Made by a program: the position numbers and the translations under genes. Below the pieces are notes generated by a model. It was given only the letters and a program-made list of their open reading frames with translations. It was not told where the DNA came from and did not search any database. A DNA stretch of 28,563 nt. Source: Candidatus Thorarchaeota archaeon (GTDB lineage: Archaea > Asgardarchaeota > Thorarchaeia > Thorarchaeales > Thorarchaeaceae). Positions 16,996-28,477 of this stretch are shown here, piece by piece; positions within the stretch are counted from its first letter, which is position 1, and each line of letters begins with the position of its first letter. The stretch is from positions 1 through 28,563 of the forward strand of contig PRDJ01000024.1 of assembly GCA_003345555.1 (NCBI GenBank), given 5' to 3'.

Positions 16996-17186
16996 ACACC
17001 GAGATTATCACAATGCCTAAAGTGCAAGCTCCACTCCGATAATAAAAGCAGCTGTCTTCAAGACTCTGGTCAGACTGGCTCACGACGAGACAGACAACAC
17101 TCTTGACACATGATGTCCTCAAATCAGGAATGTTAATTAGATTACGACGAATCCGGGCTTTGATGCCCACGGGGGTCACAAACAGT

Positions 17187-17654
17187 TTGACGGCAGCCGG
17201 TCATAAGGCGACCAGCAGTCAGAGGCAGAAAGCTAGGGGAGAGAAGGACTTCGAGCCACGGATTCTGGCTTTCTGCTGCAACTGGTGTTCCTACGCAGGG
17301 GCAGATCTGGCAGGGACAAGTAGAAGGCAAATGCCTCCGAATGTCAGGATTATCAGGGTGAATTGCACGGGACGAGTGGACCCATCGTTCATCTTGGATG
17401 CACTGAACCAAGGTGCGGACGGTGTATTGATTTCTGGCTGTCACCCAGGGGACTGCCACTACACAAGTGGCAATCTAAAGATGAAGTCACGTTTTGCCCT
17501 GCTTCAGAAGGTGTTGGAGGAAGCGGGCTTCGAGCCCGAGAGAATCCATCTGCAATGGGCGAGTGCCGCGGAAGGCGATGTATTCACTGAAGGCATTACA
17601 TCAATGGTCGAGCGTATCAAGGCATTAGGACCGAATCCCGCAAGGAAGGACTAA
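17187..17654 (+). CDS. mvhD: F420-non-reducing hydrogenase iron-sulfur subunit D (all-Cys form)
   Basis: Motifs FEPRILAFCCNWCSYAGADLAG, RIIRVNCTGRVDP and GCHPGDCHY. The start is uncertain: TTG at 17187 after GGGGTC is likely, ATG at 17163 is possible, and the frame is open from 17103. Confidence 0.92.
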   Translation: MTAAGHKATSSQRQKARGEKDFEPRILAFCCNWCSYAGADLAGTSRRQMPPNVRIIRVNCTGRVDPSFILDALNQGADGVLISGCHPGDCHYTSGNLKMKSRFALLQKVLEEAGFEPERIHLQWASAAEGDVFTEGITSMVERIKALGPNPARKD

Positions 17655-17660
17655 CAACAC

Positions 17661-18572
17661 ATGACTAAGCGTATTGCCATGGCCCAGCTGACCTCTTGTT
17701 GGGGATGCGATCAATCTCTCTTAGACTTACATCTGGGCCTTCTCGAAGTCCTGCCTGAGCTGGAAATAGTATTCTGGCCGGCGGTCGTTGACTTCAAAAT
17801 CAAGGATCTCGAATCAATGCCGGATGAGTCGATTCACATCGGTCTTGTCGAGGGCAGTTGCAGGACAGAAGATGACGTGCGCTTGCTCAATCTGATGAGA
17901 GCTAAGAGCAAGATTCTGGTTGCATGGGGTGTTTGTTCCTGTTATGGGGGCATACAAGGCCTGGCCAACCAATGGGAACTTGATGAGCTGGTTGACAGGA
18001 AGTTCATGAAAGCAGACACGGTGACTGACCCAAGGATACCTTCGGAGAATGTTCCTGCATTTGTGCCACAAGTGCGGCCGAACGTAGACGTGGTTAAGTT
18101 CAACATCTTGCTGCCAGGCTGCCCGCCGACAAGCAAGAACATTGTCGAGGCACTAGCTGCTATTCTCACAGGGAAGCCTTTCGACCTTCCCGAAAAGAGC
18201 GTATGCGACCAGTGTCCGAAGGTGAAACAAGACAAGCACATCACGAAGTTCCACAGGAGCCATGAGGGCAGAATAGACCCCAGCAAGTGCCTCTTGGACC
18301 AGGGATACCTCTGTCTGGGATTTGCCACCATCGGGTTCTGCGGAGCAATCTGCCCGACAGTCAATTCACCATGCAAAGGCTGCTTCGGTCCAGTGCTCAG
18401 AGTCAAGGACCATGGTGCCAAGATTGTTTCAGCTCTTGGTGCAATTGCCGAAATGGAACCCGAGCAGCTCAAGGATTCATTTCCGGATCCCATCGGTTCC
18501 TTCTACTTCACGGACTACGCAGCGTCTTATCTGTCGAGAATGCGCGACAAGGCGAGGAGCAAGAAGAAGTGA
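17661..18572 (+). CDS. mvhG: F420-non-reducing [NiFe] hydrogenase small subunit G
   Basis: Motifs SCWGCD, VEGSCR, WGVCSCYGG, LPGCPP, VCDQCP and CLGFATIGFCGAICPTVNSPCKGCFGP. Confidence 0.92.
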   Translation: MTKRIAMAQLTSCWGCDQSLLDLHLGLLEVLPELEIVFWPAVVDFKIKDLESMPDESIHIGLVEGSCRTEDDVRLLNLMRAKSKILVAWGVCSCYGGIQGLANQWELDELVDRKFMKADTVTDPRIPSENVPAFVPQVRPNVDVVKFNILLPGCPPTSKNIVEALAAILTGKPFDLPEKSVCDQCPKVKQDKHITKFHRSHEGRIDPSKCLLDQGYLCLGFATIGFCGAICPTVNSPCKGCFGPVLRVKDHGAKIVSALGAIAEMEPEQLKDSFPDPIGSFYFTDYAASYLSRMRDKARSKKK

Positions 18573-19882
18573 CCGGGGAGAAGGTAGTAAGGATTGAGCC
18601 CGTGACCAGGCTCGAGGGTCACGGCGACGTAACCATCAAGATTGGAAAGGACGGCAGAGTAAAGGACGCGCAATTCAGTGTTACGTCGACCCGGTTCTTC
18701 GAGAAATTCCTAGAGGGTAGGTTCGCCGAGGAGGCGCCCAAGTTTGCCTCAAGAATTTGCGGGATTTGTCCTGAGCCACATCATCTGGCCGCAGTGAAGG
18801 CTGTCGAAGCGGCTTGGGACATAACTCCGCCCGCACCAGCCGTGAAACTGAGAAGGCTCTTGATTAATGCGAAGCAGTTCAGCAGTCATGCACTTCATTT
18901 CTTCGCATTAGCCGCTCCTGATTTCTTGGCTGGTCCCTTTGGGGATCCTGCTAAGAGGAATCTGGTCGCCATAACCAAAGCACTGCCGGATGTTAGCAAG
19001 ATGGCGTTGCAGATGATGCAGTTCGGCCAAGAACTCGCTGCGGCGATAGGTGGAACAGCGATTCATCCAGTCACAGCTGTGCCCGGAGGAATGCTCAACC
19101 CATTCTCTGAGGAGAAACGCGATCAGTTCCTGAAACGGATTAGCGATGTGAAACAGTGGACAACAAGCACCGTTGCCCTAGCGAAGAAGATCATGGATGA
19201 CTACGTGGATGTCGTCACTAAGCTCGCCGTGGGACCCACGTACTACGTTGGGACACACAGCAAGGGTGCCTTGGAGATTTATGATGGCAGCATCAGGATT
19301 ATGGACACTGCGGGCGAAATCGTGGAGGATTTGAAACCAAAGGACTACAGAAAGTCCTTCGCCGAGTACGTACCCGAGCACTCCTATGCGACCCATGTCT
19401 ACTACAAGCCCGTAGGATACCCCGCCGGCATATGGCGGGCTGGCTCGTTAGCCCGAATTAACATCGCCGATAAGATGGCTACGCCTCTTGCTCATGAAGC
19501 CTTGGAAGAGATGAGAGCCAAACTCGGACGCCCGGTCCATGCCACATTTGCTTACCACTGGGCTCGAATAATCGAGCTTGTCCAAGCGGCGGAGGAAATC
19601 GAAGGTCTTCTCAAGGACCCGCAGATTGTAAACAATGACGTTAAGCTTCTGGACGTCAAACCGAAGAAGGGAGATGGTGTAGGGTGCGTGGAAGCACCAA
19701 GAGGCACTCTAATACATCACTATTGGACTGACGAGCAAGGCCTCATCACAAAGGCAAACATGATTGTGGCCACCAACAACAACATCGGTGCCATTGAGAA
19801 GAGCCTGATGGAAGTAGCGAAACAAGTGTTCGAACAGAAAGCTCACCAGAAACTGAAGCTTCCAAAGCCAGTAATCAGTTAA
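18569..19882 (+). CDS. mvhA: Hydrogenase large subunit A, N-terminal part only (VhuA-type; lacks the C-terminal CxxC motif)
   Basis: The GTG at 18569 overlaps the mvhG TGA. Motifs IEPVTRLEGH, RICGICP (L1) and EAPRGTLIHHY are present. The protein ends at TAA 19880-19882 with no DPCxxC. Confidence 0.92.
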   Translation: MTGEKVVRIEPVTRLEGHGDVTIKIGKDGRVKDAQFSVTSTRFFEKFLEGRFAEEAPKFASRICGICPEPHHLAAVKAVEAAWDITPPAPAVKLRRLLINAKQFSSHALHFFALAAPDFLAGPFGDPAKRNLVAITKALPDVSKMALQMMQFGQELAAAIGGTAIHPVTAVPGGMLNPFSEEKRDQFLKRISDVKQWTTSTVALAKKIMDDYVDVVTKLAVGPTYYVGTHSKGALEIYDGSIRIMDTAGEIVEDLKPKDYRKSFAEYVPEHSYATHVYYKPVGYPAGIWRAGSLARINIADKMATPLAHEALEEMRAKLGRPVHATFAYHWARIIELVQAAEEIEGLLKDPQIVNNDVKLLDVKPKKGDGVGCVEAPRGTLIHHYWTDEQGLITKANMIVATNNNIGAIEKSLMEVAKQVFEQKAHQKLKLPKPVIS

Positions 19883-19893
19883 GGAGGATACGA

Positions 19894-20046
19894 ATGAAAG
19901 AAGATATCGACGAAGGACTGCTCAACCTTCTTGAGATGGTTGTGCGCTGCTATGACTGCTGACTCTCGTGTGCCGCTCATATCGTCGTTGTTGATGATGA
20001 GGGGCACACGATAGCAGAGAAGGAATTGACGGCAGGCGACGAATGA
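19894..20046 (+). CDS. vhuU: Selenocysteine-containing small hydrogenase subunit U, 50 aa with Sec at residue 23 (not in the ORF track)
   Basis: SD AGGAGG at 19882-19887 and ATG at 19894. Translation: MKEDIDEGLLNLLEMVVRCYDC(U)LSCAAHIVVVDDEGHTIAEKELTAGDE*. The in-frame TGA at 19960-19962 occupies the Ni-ligand position of the L2 motif, and the frame is conserved on both sides of it. Confidence 0.93.
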
Positions 20047-20103
20047 AGACTCGGGCGAAAAACCTTGGCCCAGTCTGACAACTCTCGCAAGAGCTTGCCT
20101 GCC
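20031..20103 (+). promoter_or_regulatory. Eukaryote-like SECIS element overlapping the vhuU stop codon
   Basis: Helix I pairs GGCAGGCGA (20031-39) with UUGCCUGCC (20095-103). The core is AUGAA (20043-47) opposite UGAC (20076-79). Helix II pairs GACU-c-GGGC with GCCC-AGUC. The apical loop is GAAAAACCUUG. A side hairpin CUCU(CGCA)AGAG is also present. Folded by eye. Confidence 0.8.
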
Positions 20104-20196
20104 TGAGTCCTGTGAAACCTCTAGAACCCATTGTGAGCCTTACGAAGCCAGAGTCAACAGCTTTCGGTAATCCGGAATCTGTCGGGAAGGCTGAGC

Positions 20197-27635: not shown

Positions 27636-27721
27636 TGATGCTCTCGGTTCCCTCAGGTTTGCCATGAACTTGCAGAGGGAATCATTCTTCTGCACAAACT
27701 GTGAGCAAGAGGAGTAATCAG

Positions 27722-28477
27722 ATGACGAAATTCCTGCTTGCTCTGTGCGGACTGCCGGCCTCTGGAAAGACAACTCTTGCAGAGGAGGTCAGAAAAAGCC
27801 TGAAGTCGCGCTCAAAGGTCGAGATTGTTAGCACCGACAAGTGGCGCGACCAAGACTACTATGCCAAGTTCACGCCTGAGAAAGAACATACTGTCAGGCA
27901 GGCTGCACTCGAGACGACGACGAGAATCCTCTCAAGAGGAACATCGGTCATCCATGACGACACCAACTACTACAGCAGTATGCGTCACGAGCTCTATTCA
28001 ATCGCGAAGGAGAGCAGGTGCGCATTTGCTGTAGTCCATATTTCCACCCCGCTTGAAGTTGCACTGAACTGGAATCTGTCAAGAGCAGATCCGCTACCTG
28101 AGGAAGTCATCCTCAAGATAGCACGCAACTTCGAACCGCCTGGATCCAAGTACGAATGGGATAGGGCAGTCGCAGTTGTGGACCTATCTCAGACCAAGGC
28201 TGAGGACGCGGCACGAGAGGTCGCTAAGATAATCCGCACACTAAGGACAATCCACGAAAAGACCAGGGAAGCCGGCGAACCAGTGGTGGATTTGCTGGAT
28301 ATCGCCACACGCCAAGCGGTTGCTTCGTTCCTTAGCGAATTCGAGACGTACAGAAGTGATCCGAGAGTGCATAGAATCAGAAGAACAATACTTGCGGAAT
28401 CGAGGAAGAGAAGCGCAACACCAGAGGAAGCAAGAGACCGTGTCACAGTCGAACTGAAGCGGCTATCGTCCTCATAG
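27722..28477 (+). CDS. pstk: L-seryl-tRNA(Sec) kinase (PSTK; Kti12-related family)
   Basis: P-loop CGLPASGKTT, then STDKWR, DDTNYYSSMRHEL and FEPPGSKYEWD, closely matching archaeal PSTK motifs. SD GAGGAG precedes ATG 27722, and the gene is adjacent to tRNA-Sec. Confidence 0.85.
   Translation: MTKFLLALCGLPASGKTTLAEEVRKSLKSRSKVEIVSTDKWRDQDYYAKFTPEKEHTVRQAALETTTRILSRGTSVIHDDTNYYSSMRHELYSIAKESRCAFAVVHISTPLEVALNWNLSRADPLPEEVILKIARNFEPPGSKYEWDRAVAVVDLSQTKAEDAAREVAKIIRTLRTIHEKTREAGEPVVDLLDIATRQAVASFLSEFETYRSDPRVHRIRRTILAESRKRSATPEEARDRVTVELKRLSSS

What the first reader, a model, noticed from the sequence alone, without database searches (positions are those of the whole stretch)
20031..20103. Eukaryote-like SECIS whose AUGA core contains the selenoprotein's own UGA stop codon
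The terminal codons GAA-UGA (20041-46) supply the AUGA of the AUGAA/UGAC non-Watson-Crick quartet, and helix I begins in the last codons (ACG GCA GGC GAC). The Sec UGA lies 80 nt upstream of the core, a spacing provided by the codons of the proteolytically removed tail. The stop UGA sits at zero distance, which plausibly excludes it from recoding. Any read-through would only lengthen the disposable tail (next in-frame stops TGA 20104, TGA 20113, TAG 20122). Eukaryote-like SECIS elements are known from Lokiarchaeota (Mariotti et al. 2016). I am not aware whether this stop-in-core layout or the extra CUCU(CGCA)AGAG side hairpin has been described.
Basis: partly seen in the sequence, partly recalled or inferred. 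Interest (0 to 1): 0.88.

Follow-up and report, generated by a model that had tools for sequence, protein, structure and literature searches.

The report
Asgard vhuU SECIS with stop-in-core
The RNA structure at the end of this small hydrogenase gene is a genuine, conserved selenocysteine-insertion signal of the eukaryote-like type already published for Asgard archaea, stop codon inside its core included; its conserved three-armed shape is the only part I did not find described.

Summary
Observation confirmed. The window is from a Thorarchaeota-like MAG. vhuU (19894-20046) has Sec UGA at 19960-62, and its stop UGA (20044-46) is the UGA of the AUGA core of an Asgard eSECIS-like element (20031-20103).

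The stop-in-core layout is not new. Mariotti et al. 2016 state it for Loki VhuU.1, and Huang et al. 2024 say such overlaps are frequent. Earlier agents of this scan reported the same kind on other genomes.

Across 61 Asgard vhuU loci:
- 59 have the stop inside AUGA.
- The Sec-to-stop distance is 84 nt in 53 of them.

What I add:
- **Three-way junction.** Helix I and the 'extra' side hairpin form a three-way junction with the upper stem. All 23 modelled pairs show compensatory changes (84% paired against 33-44% in slid controls).
- **Same architecture in selD.** It also has the stop in the core, but lies 990 nt from the Sec codon.
- **k-junction topology.** The third helix sits in the non-bulged strand and abuts helix I. 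The papers I could search describe only two stems and an internal loop.
- **Hairpin at the Sec codon.** A Thor-specific coding-region hairpin starts at the Sec codon (19956-20017).

Verdict: a real SECIS, a new member of a known kind, with moderate residual novelty in the junction.

The parts
17103..17654 (+). vhuD/mvhD-like gene (FlpD domain), first gene of the vhu cluster; no in-frame TGA
   Evidence: Pfam FlpD E 4.6e-55; NCBIfam VhuD/HdrA2 C-terminal part; no stops inside the match
17661..18572 (+). vhuG-like hydrogenase small subunit
   Evidence: Pfam Oxidored_q6
18587..19882 (+). vhuA: [NiFe] hydrogenase large subunit lacking the C-terminal nickel-binding motif
   Evidence: NCBIfam VhuA NF041785 E 1e-136, best hit, below the curated cut-off; Pfam NiFeSe_Hases
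19894..20046 (+). vhuU: 50-codon selenoprotein gene (DCULSCAAH motif + 21-codon tail)
   Evidence: same gene in 60 further Asgard loci
19960..19962 (+). Sec codon UGA
   Evidence: In-frame TGA at the Cys/Sec position of the D-C-U-x-x-C-x-x-H motif, invariant in 61 loci
19956..20017 (+). Coding-region hairpin that contains the Sec codon at its base (Thorarchaeota-specific, SRE-like)
   Evidence: 19950-20110 folds at -70.8 kcal/mol, z -5.45; z -5.1 against 200 synonymous recodings; 78% of cells paired against 30-52% slid
20031..20039 (+). Helix I, 5' strand (GGCAGGCGA), inside the last codons of vhuU
   Evidence: 10 of 10 modelled helix I pairs have compensatory changes
20043..20046 (+). AUGA of the SECIS core; 20044-46 is the vhuU stop codon
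   Evidence: 59 of 61 orthologues identical in layout
20047..20076 (+). Upper stem (9 bp + bulged C 20052) with 11-nt apical loop GAAAAACCUUG (20057-67)
   Evidence: 9 of 9 pairs with compensatory changes
20077..20078 (+). GA of the non-Watson-Crick quartet (3' side)
   Evidence: GA or AA in all aligned orthologues
20082..20093 (+). Side hairpin CUCU(CGCA)AGAG: third helix of the junction, 1 nt from helix I
   Evidence: 4 of 4 modelled pairs with compensatory changes, 92% paired; also present in selD SECIS
20095..20103 (+). Helix I, 3' strand (UUGCCUGCC)
27701..28477 (+). PSTK-like gene (Sec machinery) in the same window
   Evidence: TIGR03574 E 1.5e-40 over the full profile length, below the curated cut-off

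Best explanation
This is the selenocysteine insertion sequence of the vhuU mRNA of a Thorarchaeota-like Asgard archaeon. It is a type I 'eSECIS-like' (lokiSECIS) element.

Proposed mechanism:
- While the ribosome sits on UGA 19960, the element 70-140 nt downstream is still folded.
- Its AUGA/GA kink-turn-like core and A-rich apical loop recruit the Sec-specific elongation factor with Sec-tRNA(Sec). Recruitment is either direct or through an unidentified kink-turn-binding protein. UGA is then read as Sec.
- As the ribosome translates the tail, which by analogy with M. voltae VhuU is later cut off, it unwinds helix I (last codons) and then the core itself.
- So when the second UGA (20044-46) reaches the A site the signal no longer exists, and release factor terminates.

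The element is not a simple two-stem hairpin. Helix I, the upper stem and a short side hairpin form a three-way junction. The third helix is inserted in the non-bulged strand and abuts helix I, which is the topology of a k-junction.

Shown here: sequence features, conservation, covariation, gene context.
Inferred: the factor binding, the unwinding logic and the 3D k-junction fold.
For: Match to the published definition:
- AUGA, a 9-bp stem, an 11-nt loop starting A-rich and ending in G, then GA(C) (definition in Mariotti 2016).
- It also fits the type I PatScan pattern of Huang 2024.

Gene and layout:
- The gene is vhuU, with UGA at the Sec position.
- 61 Asgard vhuU loci share the layout: 59 have the stop inside AUGA, and the Sec-to-stop distance is 84 nt in 53, 96 nt in 7 and 81 nt in 1.

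Covariation for all three helices:
- MAFFT alignment: 81.5% of cells paired against 31-45% when the partner is slid; covariation score 0.44 against 0.135 or less.
- CM alignment: 84.3% against 33-44%; 23 of 23 pairs with double changes; 0 of 500 shuffles reach the observed values.

Specificity and spread:
- The model hits only the two vhuU 3' ends in this genome.
- It hits 58 of 151 sampled genomes of the phylum, in 6 families.

Sec trait in this genome:
- selD with in-frame UGA.
- EFsec/SelB above the family cut-off.
- A PSTK-like gene in the window.

Same junction elsewhere:
- selD SECIS has the same junction and the same stop-in-core; 11 of 11 Thor selD genes end ...EFP-UGA inside (A/G)UGA.
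- The side hairpin abuts helix I with 0 nt (35 loci) or 1 nt (16 loci) between them. [quoted passage not shown]

The proximity argument for the stop codon is the published one (Mariotti 2016).
Against: - There is no experimental evidence for any Asgard SECIS.
- No Rfam SECIS family matches, even at E up to 10. The published work reports the same failure for SECISearch3.
- SepSecS and tRNA-Sec were not found in this 93%-complete MAG.
- The window's upper stem has a bulged C, and its side hairpin uses a register shifted by one relative to most orthologues (CGCA tetraloop instead of CGCAA pentaloop).
- The k-junction reading rests on secondary-structure topology only. There are 2-3 linker nucleotides between GA and the third helix, which the TPP-riboswitch k-junction lacks.
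- The covariation counts include closely related sequences.
Confidence: 0.9

Rival explanations
1. The element is an ordinary two-stem eSECIS-like structure (lower stem, internal loop, core, upper stem), as in the published models. The side hairpin would be incidental sequence inside the 3' half of the internal loop, with no structural role.
For: Published models (Huang 2024; the 2026 review) draw two stems and an internal loop, and report no highly conserved nucleotides there. The two middle pairs of the hairpin are almost invariant C-G, so they carry little covariation on their own.
Against: - The outer hairpin pair covaries: AU 28, GC 16, CG 5.
- The window and selD elements use entirely different stem sequences that still pair: CUCU/AGAG, GCCGC/GCGGC, UUGCU/AGCAG, GCUAC/GUAGC.
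- The hairpin is found in vhuU, selD and other contexts, in several Asgard classes.
- Its position against helix I is fixed within 0-1 nt.
Confidence: 0.08
2. In Thorarchaeota the main recoding signal is the strong hairpin that starts at the Sec codon itself (19956-20017). It would act like a bacterial SECIS or a eukaryotic SRE (the stem-loop next to the Sec UGA in some eukaryotic selenoprotein mRNAs). The 3' element would be auxiliary or serve another purpose, such as mRNA stability or termination.
For: The hairpin is much more stable than synonymous recodings in every Thor-type vhuU (z -3 to -5.9, 0 of 200 recodings as stable in all but two loci, which have 1 of 200). It contains the UGA.
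Against: - It is absent from Loki, Borr, Hel and Atabey vhuU, which keep the 3' element.
- It has few compensatory changes.
- Thor selD has the 3' element 990 nt from its UGA.
- The 3' element carries all the conserved SECIS core motifs.
Confidence: 0.06
3. The structure is only a 3'-end or terminator-type hairpin, and UGA 19960 is not decoded as Sec. vhuU would then be a truncated or non-functional remnant.
For: SepSecS and tRNA-Sec were not found in the assembly. No experimental data exist.
Against: - No T-run follows, and no terminator-like site was found.
- The reading frame, the CxxH motif and the tail after the UGA are conserved in 61 loci.
- selD also carries an in-frame UGA, and EFsec and PSTK-like genes are present.
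- The MAG is 93% complete, and tRNA genes are often missing from MAGs.
Confidence: 0.02

Closest known systems
lokiSECIS of Lokiarchaeota VhuU.1 (Mariotti et al. 2016, PMC4989117)
   Same: AUGA core, 9-bp stem, 11-nt apical loop that is A-rich at the start and ends in G, GA/AA after the stem. It lies at the very end of vhuU, and the AUGA doubles as the UGA stop codon. The published argument that proximity prevents recoding of the stop is the same.
   Different: The organism is Thorarchaeota-like. The 3' core dinucleotide is GA, not the AA reported for Loki VhuU. The loop starts G-AAAAA. There is one bulged C in the stem. The text I could read describes only the stem-loop, not helix I plus the side hairpin.
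Type I eSECIS-like structures of Asgard frhA/vhuU (Huang, Xiao, Zhang 2024, PMC11227280)
   Same: It fits their type I pattern (GA_[G/A]A core, 7-15-bp upper stem, 8-20-nt loop). They already catalogue Thorarchaeia frhA elements, note that UGA stops overlap the AUGA motif, and report [U/C]GG_C[C/U][A/G] pairs in frhA lower stems. Those pairs correspond to helix I here.
   Different: Their model has a lower stem and an internal loop. No third helix or junction is mentioned in the main text: 'hairpin' occurs 0 times, and 'junction' occurs only in a reference title.
Eukaryotic SECIS (type I), kink-turn-like core bound by SBP2
   Same: AUGA...GA non-Watson-Crick quartet at the foot of the upper helix, unpaired A's in the apical loop, action at a distance from the 3' end of the message, and a minimal UGA-to-SECIS spacing.
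   Different: The upper stem is shorter. It overlaps the coding region and the stop codon. No Rfam SECIS model matches. No SBP2 exists in Asgard archaea (literature). A third helix is present.
k-junction of TPP riboswitches (Wang, Daldrop, Huang, Lilley 2014, PMC4005666)
   Same: [quoted passage not shown] G.A/A.G pairs begin the NC helix.
   Different: This is only a secondary-structure analogy. There are 2-3 linker nucleotides after GA. The function is different. No 3D data exist.
SRE (selenocysteine codon redefinition element) of eukaryotic SEPN1, and bacterial SECIS
   Same: A stable hairpin in the coding sequence next to the Sec UGA. This applies to 19956-20017, not to the reported element.
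   Different: Here the UGA lies inside the base of the stem. The hairpin is restricted to Thorarchaeota-type vhuU. Its role is untested.

Membership tests
Asgard eSECIS-like / lokiSECIS, type I | AUGA (or GUGA) immediately 5' of the upper stem | tested here: met
   AUGA at 20043-46; conserved in 59 of 61 orthologues
Asgard eSECIS-like / lokiSECIS, type I | Upper stem of about 9 bp (7-15 bp, at most 2 mismatches, 1 indel) and apical loop of about 11 nt (8-20) without a ministem | tested here: met
   9 bp plus one bulged C; 11-nt loop; 9 of 9 pairs covary
Asgard eSECIS-like / lokiSECIS, type I | A-rich start of the apical loop and G at its last position | tested here: met
   Loop GAAAAACCUUG
Asgard eSECIS-like / lokiSECIS, type I | GA or AA directly 3' of the stem (quartet partner) | tested here: met
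   GA at 20077-78, followed by C
Asgard eSECIS-like / lokiSECIS, type I | Located at or near the 3' end of a gene with an in-frame UGA at a known Sec/Cys position | tested here: met
   vhuU DCULSCAAH
Asgard eSECIS-like / lokiSECIS, type I | The genome carries the Sec machinery | tested here: inconclusive
   selD(Sec), EFsec and a PSTK-like gene were found. SepSecS and tRNA-Sec were not found in a 93%-complete MAG.
Asgard eSECIS-like / lokiSECIS, type I | Directs Sec insertion at the upstream UGA | not testable with these tools
   To my knowledge no Asgard SECIS has been tested experimentally
Eukaryotic SECIS (Rfam SECIS families) | Match to a curated covariance model | tested here: not met
   No SECIS family appears at the gathering score or at E up to 10
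k-junction | Three-way junction with tandem G.A/A.G at the start of one helix, and the third helix inserted in the non-bulged strand | tested here: met
   Secondary structure and covariation; definition
k-junction | Kinked 3D geometry, cross-strand A-minor hydrogen bonds, T helix coaxial with C helix | not testable with these tools
   Only a 0-1-nt spacing between the side hairpin and helix I is shown

The most novel reading that the evidence does not exclude
Asgard SECIS elements in general (vhuU, selD and others) are not two-stem hairpins. They are k-junctions: a kink-turn core on a three-way junction. Its conserved third helix (loop consensus N-G-C-R-A, commonest CGCAA) stacks on helix I. 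This undescribed module would pre-form the kink, or be the docking site for the still unknown archaeal SECIS-binding factor or EFsec, in organisms that lack SBP2. In Thorarchaeota a second, SRE-like hairpin at the Sec codon cooperates with it.
Probability: 0.4. Interest if true: 0.6.

Novelty: new member of a known kind. Interest (0 to 1): 0.35.

Why it matters
As stated, the finding re-discovers a published feature, so it changes little by itself.

It does give a clean, well-conserved example of how one UGA is recoded and a second UGA, 84 nt later in the same short mRNA, terminates. The second UGA is part of the signal that the ribosome must destroy to reach it.

The residual value is structural. 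If the three-way (k-junction-like) architecture holds for Asgard SECIS elements in general, the current two-stem search models and the 'roadmap' from archaeal to eukaryotic SECIS are incomplete. The conserved third helix would then be an obvious handle for finding the missing archaeal SECIS-binding partner.

Tried and rejected
- **Rfam:** searches at the gathering score and at E up to 10 gave no SECIS family, only chance snoRNA/miRNA hits.
- **RNAalifold on the MAFFT alignment:** it paired GCGGCGG with the CCCCGC of the side hairpin instead of the junction. I rejected this fold because those pairs are almost invariant (0-2 double changes in four of the six, at most 5), it cannot form in the window's own sequence, and the junction model has far more compensatory changes.
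- **RNAalifold on the Sec-codon hairpin:** over all lineages it gave no consensus. The hairpin is lineage-specific.
- **My loose three-way-junction descriptor:** it is unspecific (87 hits in the genome). It is useful only with the GC-in-loop filter, or when anchored at a known core.
- **Sec-containing vhuD/hdrA loci:** a search with Pfam FlpD across the phylum returned only Cys-type copies among the listed loci, so the junction was not tested for hdrA-vhuD or prxL SECIS.
- **tRNA-Sec:** aragorn found none. The best Rfam tRNA-Sec hit is a tRNA-Ser(CGA).
- **SepSecS:** not found with Pfam or NCBIfam models.
- **Supplements:** those of Mariotti 2016 are not held. Those of Huang 2024 contain none of the terms searched. 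I therefore cannot exclude that a supplementary figure shows the side hairpin.
- **Orphan elements after cysS:** the genes downstream showed no conserved UGA.

Full report
**What is there**

The window is contig C24 of a 2.28-Mb, 93%-complete MAG. Its hydrogenase large subunit is 91% identical to that of a 'Candidatus Thorarchaeota' MAG. All close relatives are Asgard archaea.

Positions 17103-20046 hold a vhu cluster:
- a vhuD-like gene (FlpD domain)
- vhuG
- vhuA, which lacks the C-terminal nickel-binding motif
- the 50-codon vhuU at 19894-20046

vhuU reads MKEDIDEGLLNLLEMVVRCYDC-U-LSCAAH followed by IVVVDDEGHTIAEKELTAGDE. The in-frame TGA at 19960-62 sits at the Cys/Sec position of the D-P/C-C-x-x-C-x-x-H motif. 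With U read as C, the best NCBIfam hit is VhuU.

By analogy with Methanococcus voltae VhuU, whose mature form is 26 aa (PMC9929600), the 21 residues after the His are removed during maturation. That step is inferred, not shown here.

**Check of the observation**

- stop TGA at 20044-46, preceded by A, so AUGA is at 20043-46
- 80 nt between the Sec codon and AUGA
- further in-frame stops at 20104, 20113 and 20122

RNAfold of 20025-20110 returns the proposed fold as both the MFE and the centroid. The energy is -33.2 kcal/mol, z -3.04. Its parts are:
- helix I, 20031-39 with 20095-103
- AUGA core
- a 9-bp upper stem with one bulged C
- an 11-nt loop, GAAAAACCUUG
- GA at 20077-78
- the side hairpin CUCU(CGCA)AGAG at 20082-93

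Several checks show this is more than chance:
- A strict pattern for the core, stem and loop occurs once in both strands of the whole genome.
- A covariance model of the element finds only two places in the genome. One is this site. The other is the 3' end of a second vhuU copy on contig C36.
- The remaining spacer up to the convergent leucyl-tRNA-synthetase-like gene is unstructured.
- No terminator-like site was found.

**Comparative evidence**

I fetched 80 loci around vhuA relatives. Sixty of them, plus the window, carry vhuU directly downstream. They come from MAGs labelled Thor-, Promethe(Loki)-, Hermod-, Hel-, Borr-, Jord- and Atabeyarchaeia.

- In 59 of 61 the stop codon is the UGA of an AUGA. 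The last sense codon is GGA in 54 and GAA in 5.
- L077 has a 2-nt insertion that creates a UAG stop, and it retains AUGA 2 nt downstream.
- The Jordarchaeia locus L069 has UUGA.
- The distance from Sec UGA to stop is 84 nt in 53 loci, 96 nt in 7 and 81 nt in 1.

I wrote the three-helix structure onto a MAFFT alignment of 60 sequences:
- 81.5% of cells form standard pairs, against 31-45% when the 3' partners are slid by 1-3 columns.
- The covariation score is 0.44, against 0.135 or less.

After realignment with a covariance model, 66 sequences:
- 84.3% are paired, against 33-44%.
- All 23 pairs have at least one double (compensatory) change.
- None of 500 column shuffles reaches the observed values.

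Each helix is supported on its own:
- helix I: 10 of 10 pairs
- upper stem: 9 of 9 pairs
- side hairpin: 4 of 4 pairs; its outer pair is AU 28, GC 16, CG 5

Caveat: many sequences are related, and the second alignment is fitted to the model.

The model finds the element in 58 of 151 sampled genomes of the phylum, concentrated in six families.

**What was already known**

Mariotti et al. 2016 defined the lokiSECIS: AUGA, a 9-bp stem, an 11-nt loop that is A-rich and ends in G, and GA, or AA in VhuU. [quoted passage not shown] They also argued that closeness to the SECIS precludes recoding of such stops, in analogy to the eukaryotic minimal distance.

Huang et al. 2024:
- extended this to more than 400 Asgard genomes, including Thorarchaeia frhA/vhuU
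- state that UGA stops often overlap the AUGA motif
- note family-specific pairs in the lower stems

So the headline of the finding is a correct re-discovery.

Rfam's eukaryotic SECIS models do not match. This agrees with the published failure of SECISearch3.

Earlier agents of this scan reported the same kind of element on other genomes, including a 'three-armed junction' and a hairpin at the Sec codon. I tested both claims here.

**What seems not to be described**

[quoted passage not shown] They never mention a third helix. I could not see the supplementary figures.

The side hairpin is nevertheless conserved. It is nested between the GA and the 3' strand of helix I, and abuts helix I with 0 nt (35 loci) or 1 nt (16 loci) between them.

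The same architecture occurs in the SECIS of selD, in this genome and in several other lineages:
- This genome, contig C77: GAGACCG-AGUUCCC-AUGA-[type II upper part]-AA-GGAUU-GCCGC(CGCGA)GCGGC-CGGUCUC.
- The hairpin stem sequences are quite different from locus to locus but still pair.
- The commonest loop is CGCAA, with a G-C at loop positions 2-3 in most.

[quoted passage not shown] That is the definition of a k-junction (PMC4005666). The 3D claim is inference.

In 11 of 11 Thorarchaeota-family selD genes the stop codon is again the UGA of the (A/G)UGA core. The last codons (E-T-E) form helix I, and the Sec codon lies 990 nt upstream. Stop-in-core is therefore a general design, and the 80-nt spacing of vhuU is not a requirement of the mechanism.

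**A second structure in the same mRNA**

Positions 19956-20017 form a long hairpin with the Sec codon at its base. The whole 19950-20110 stretch folds at -70.8 kcal/mol, z -5.45.

- Against 200 synonymous recodings, every Thorarchaeota-type vhuU is far more stable than expected (z -3 to -5.9).
- Loki-, Borr-, Hel- and Atabey-type genes show no signal. The null used this window's codon usage, which is less fair to AT-rich genomes.
- Pairing is 78% against 30-52% in slid controls, but there are few double changes, as expected in coding sequence.

So almost all of the 84 nt between the two UGAs is engaged in RNA structure. The tail codons are more than a spacer. The hairpin resembles a eukaryotic SRE or a bacterial SECIS in position. 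Its role is untested.

**Mechanism, with its status**

Shown:
- the motifs
- their conservation and covariation
- the gene context
- part of the Sec machinery: selD with UGA, EFsec, and a PSTK-like gene in the window at 27701-28477

Not found: SepSecS and tRNA-Sec.

Inferred:
- The folded junction recruits EFsec with Sec-tRNA to the ribosome paused at UGA 19960.
- Translation of the tail then unwinds helix I and the core.
- As a result the stop UGA is read by release factor.
- Read-through would at most add 19 residues to a tail that is removed anyway.

**Verdict**

It is a new member of a known kind, and the stop-in-core layout is already known. The conserved three-way junction, and in Thorarchaeota the Sec-codon hairpin, are the parts worth a specialist's attention.

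Noticed in passing
window 19956-20017: A strong coding-region hairpin with the Sec UGA at its base. It is far more stable than synonymous recodings in all Thorarchaeota-type vhuU genes, and shows no such signal in the other Asgard lineages.
   Followed up: yes
G000:C36:6588-6695 (-), locus L081: A second vhuU with the same stop-in-core three-way-junction SECIS in the same genome, downstream of a second vhuD-like gene.
   Followed up: partly
G000:C77:65691-66800 (+), locus L091: selD has Sec UGA, and its stop codon is also the UGA of the SECIS core, 990 nt downstream. The SECIS is type II and has the same helix I plus side hairpin (GCCGC CGCGA GCGGC). The same holds in 11 of 11 Thor-family selD genes.
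   Followed up: yes
window 27701-28477 (+): A PSTK-like gene (L-seryl-tRNA(Sec) kinase, E 1.5e-40, below the curated cut-off) lies at the end of the contig. SepSecS and tRNA-Sec were not found anywhere in the assembly.
   Followed up: partly
L128, L129, L136, L133 (Thorarchaeota-family genomes G046, G116, G108, G131): An 'orphan' three-way-junction SECIS-like element lies about 50 nt downstream of cysS. cysS has no in-frame UGA. The element keeps its helices through compensatory changes between genomes. Its 5' part resembles the last vhuU codons. The downstream genes show no conserved UGA. Unexplained.
   Followed up: partly
L131, L132, L134, L135 (Loki-type genomes): Small one-TM ORFs (about 50 aa) end in GGG-UGA. 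They continue in frame with (P/Q)xxC... and are followed about 60 nt later by a SECIS with a side hairpin. This may be a small membrane selenoprotein. An earlier scan note reports a similar family.
   Followed up: no
L037 3806-3915, L035 4109-4217, L050 4205-4290 (weaker: L044, L017): A second copy of the last 14-18 vhuU codons plus the SECIS lies 0.8-1.2 kb downstream of the real one. It looks as if something had inserted into the vhuU 3' end with duplication of the target, or it is an assembly artefact.
   Followed up: no
L004-L013, L015, L018, L020, L026 and others: Many Thorarchaeota vhuA homologues (about 75% identical to the window's) end ...LPDPMIK* with no vhuU directly downstream.
   Followed up: no
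L077 2956-3064: A natural variant: a 2-nt insertion gives a UAG stop, and the intact AUGA core follows 2 nt later.
   Followed up: partly
A1 columns 107-125 (most Thor loci; not the window): A conserved pyrimidine tract CUCCUUCC..UUUCUCUUU follows helix I. CUCCUU is complementary to the conserved AAGGAG (K-E codons) upstream of helix I, so it could extend helix I or be a terminator. It is absent in the window.
   Followed up: no
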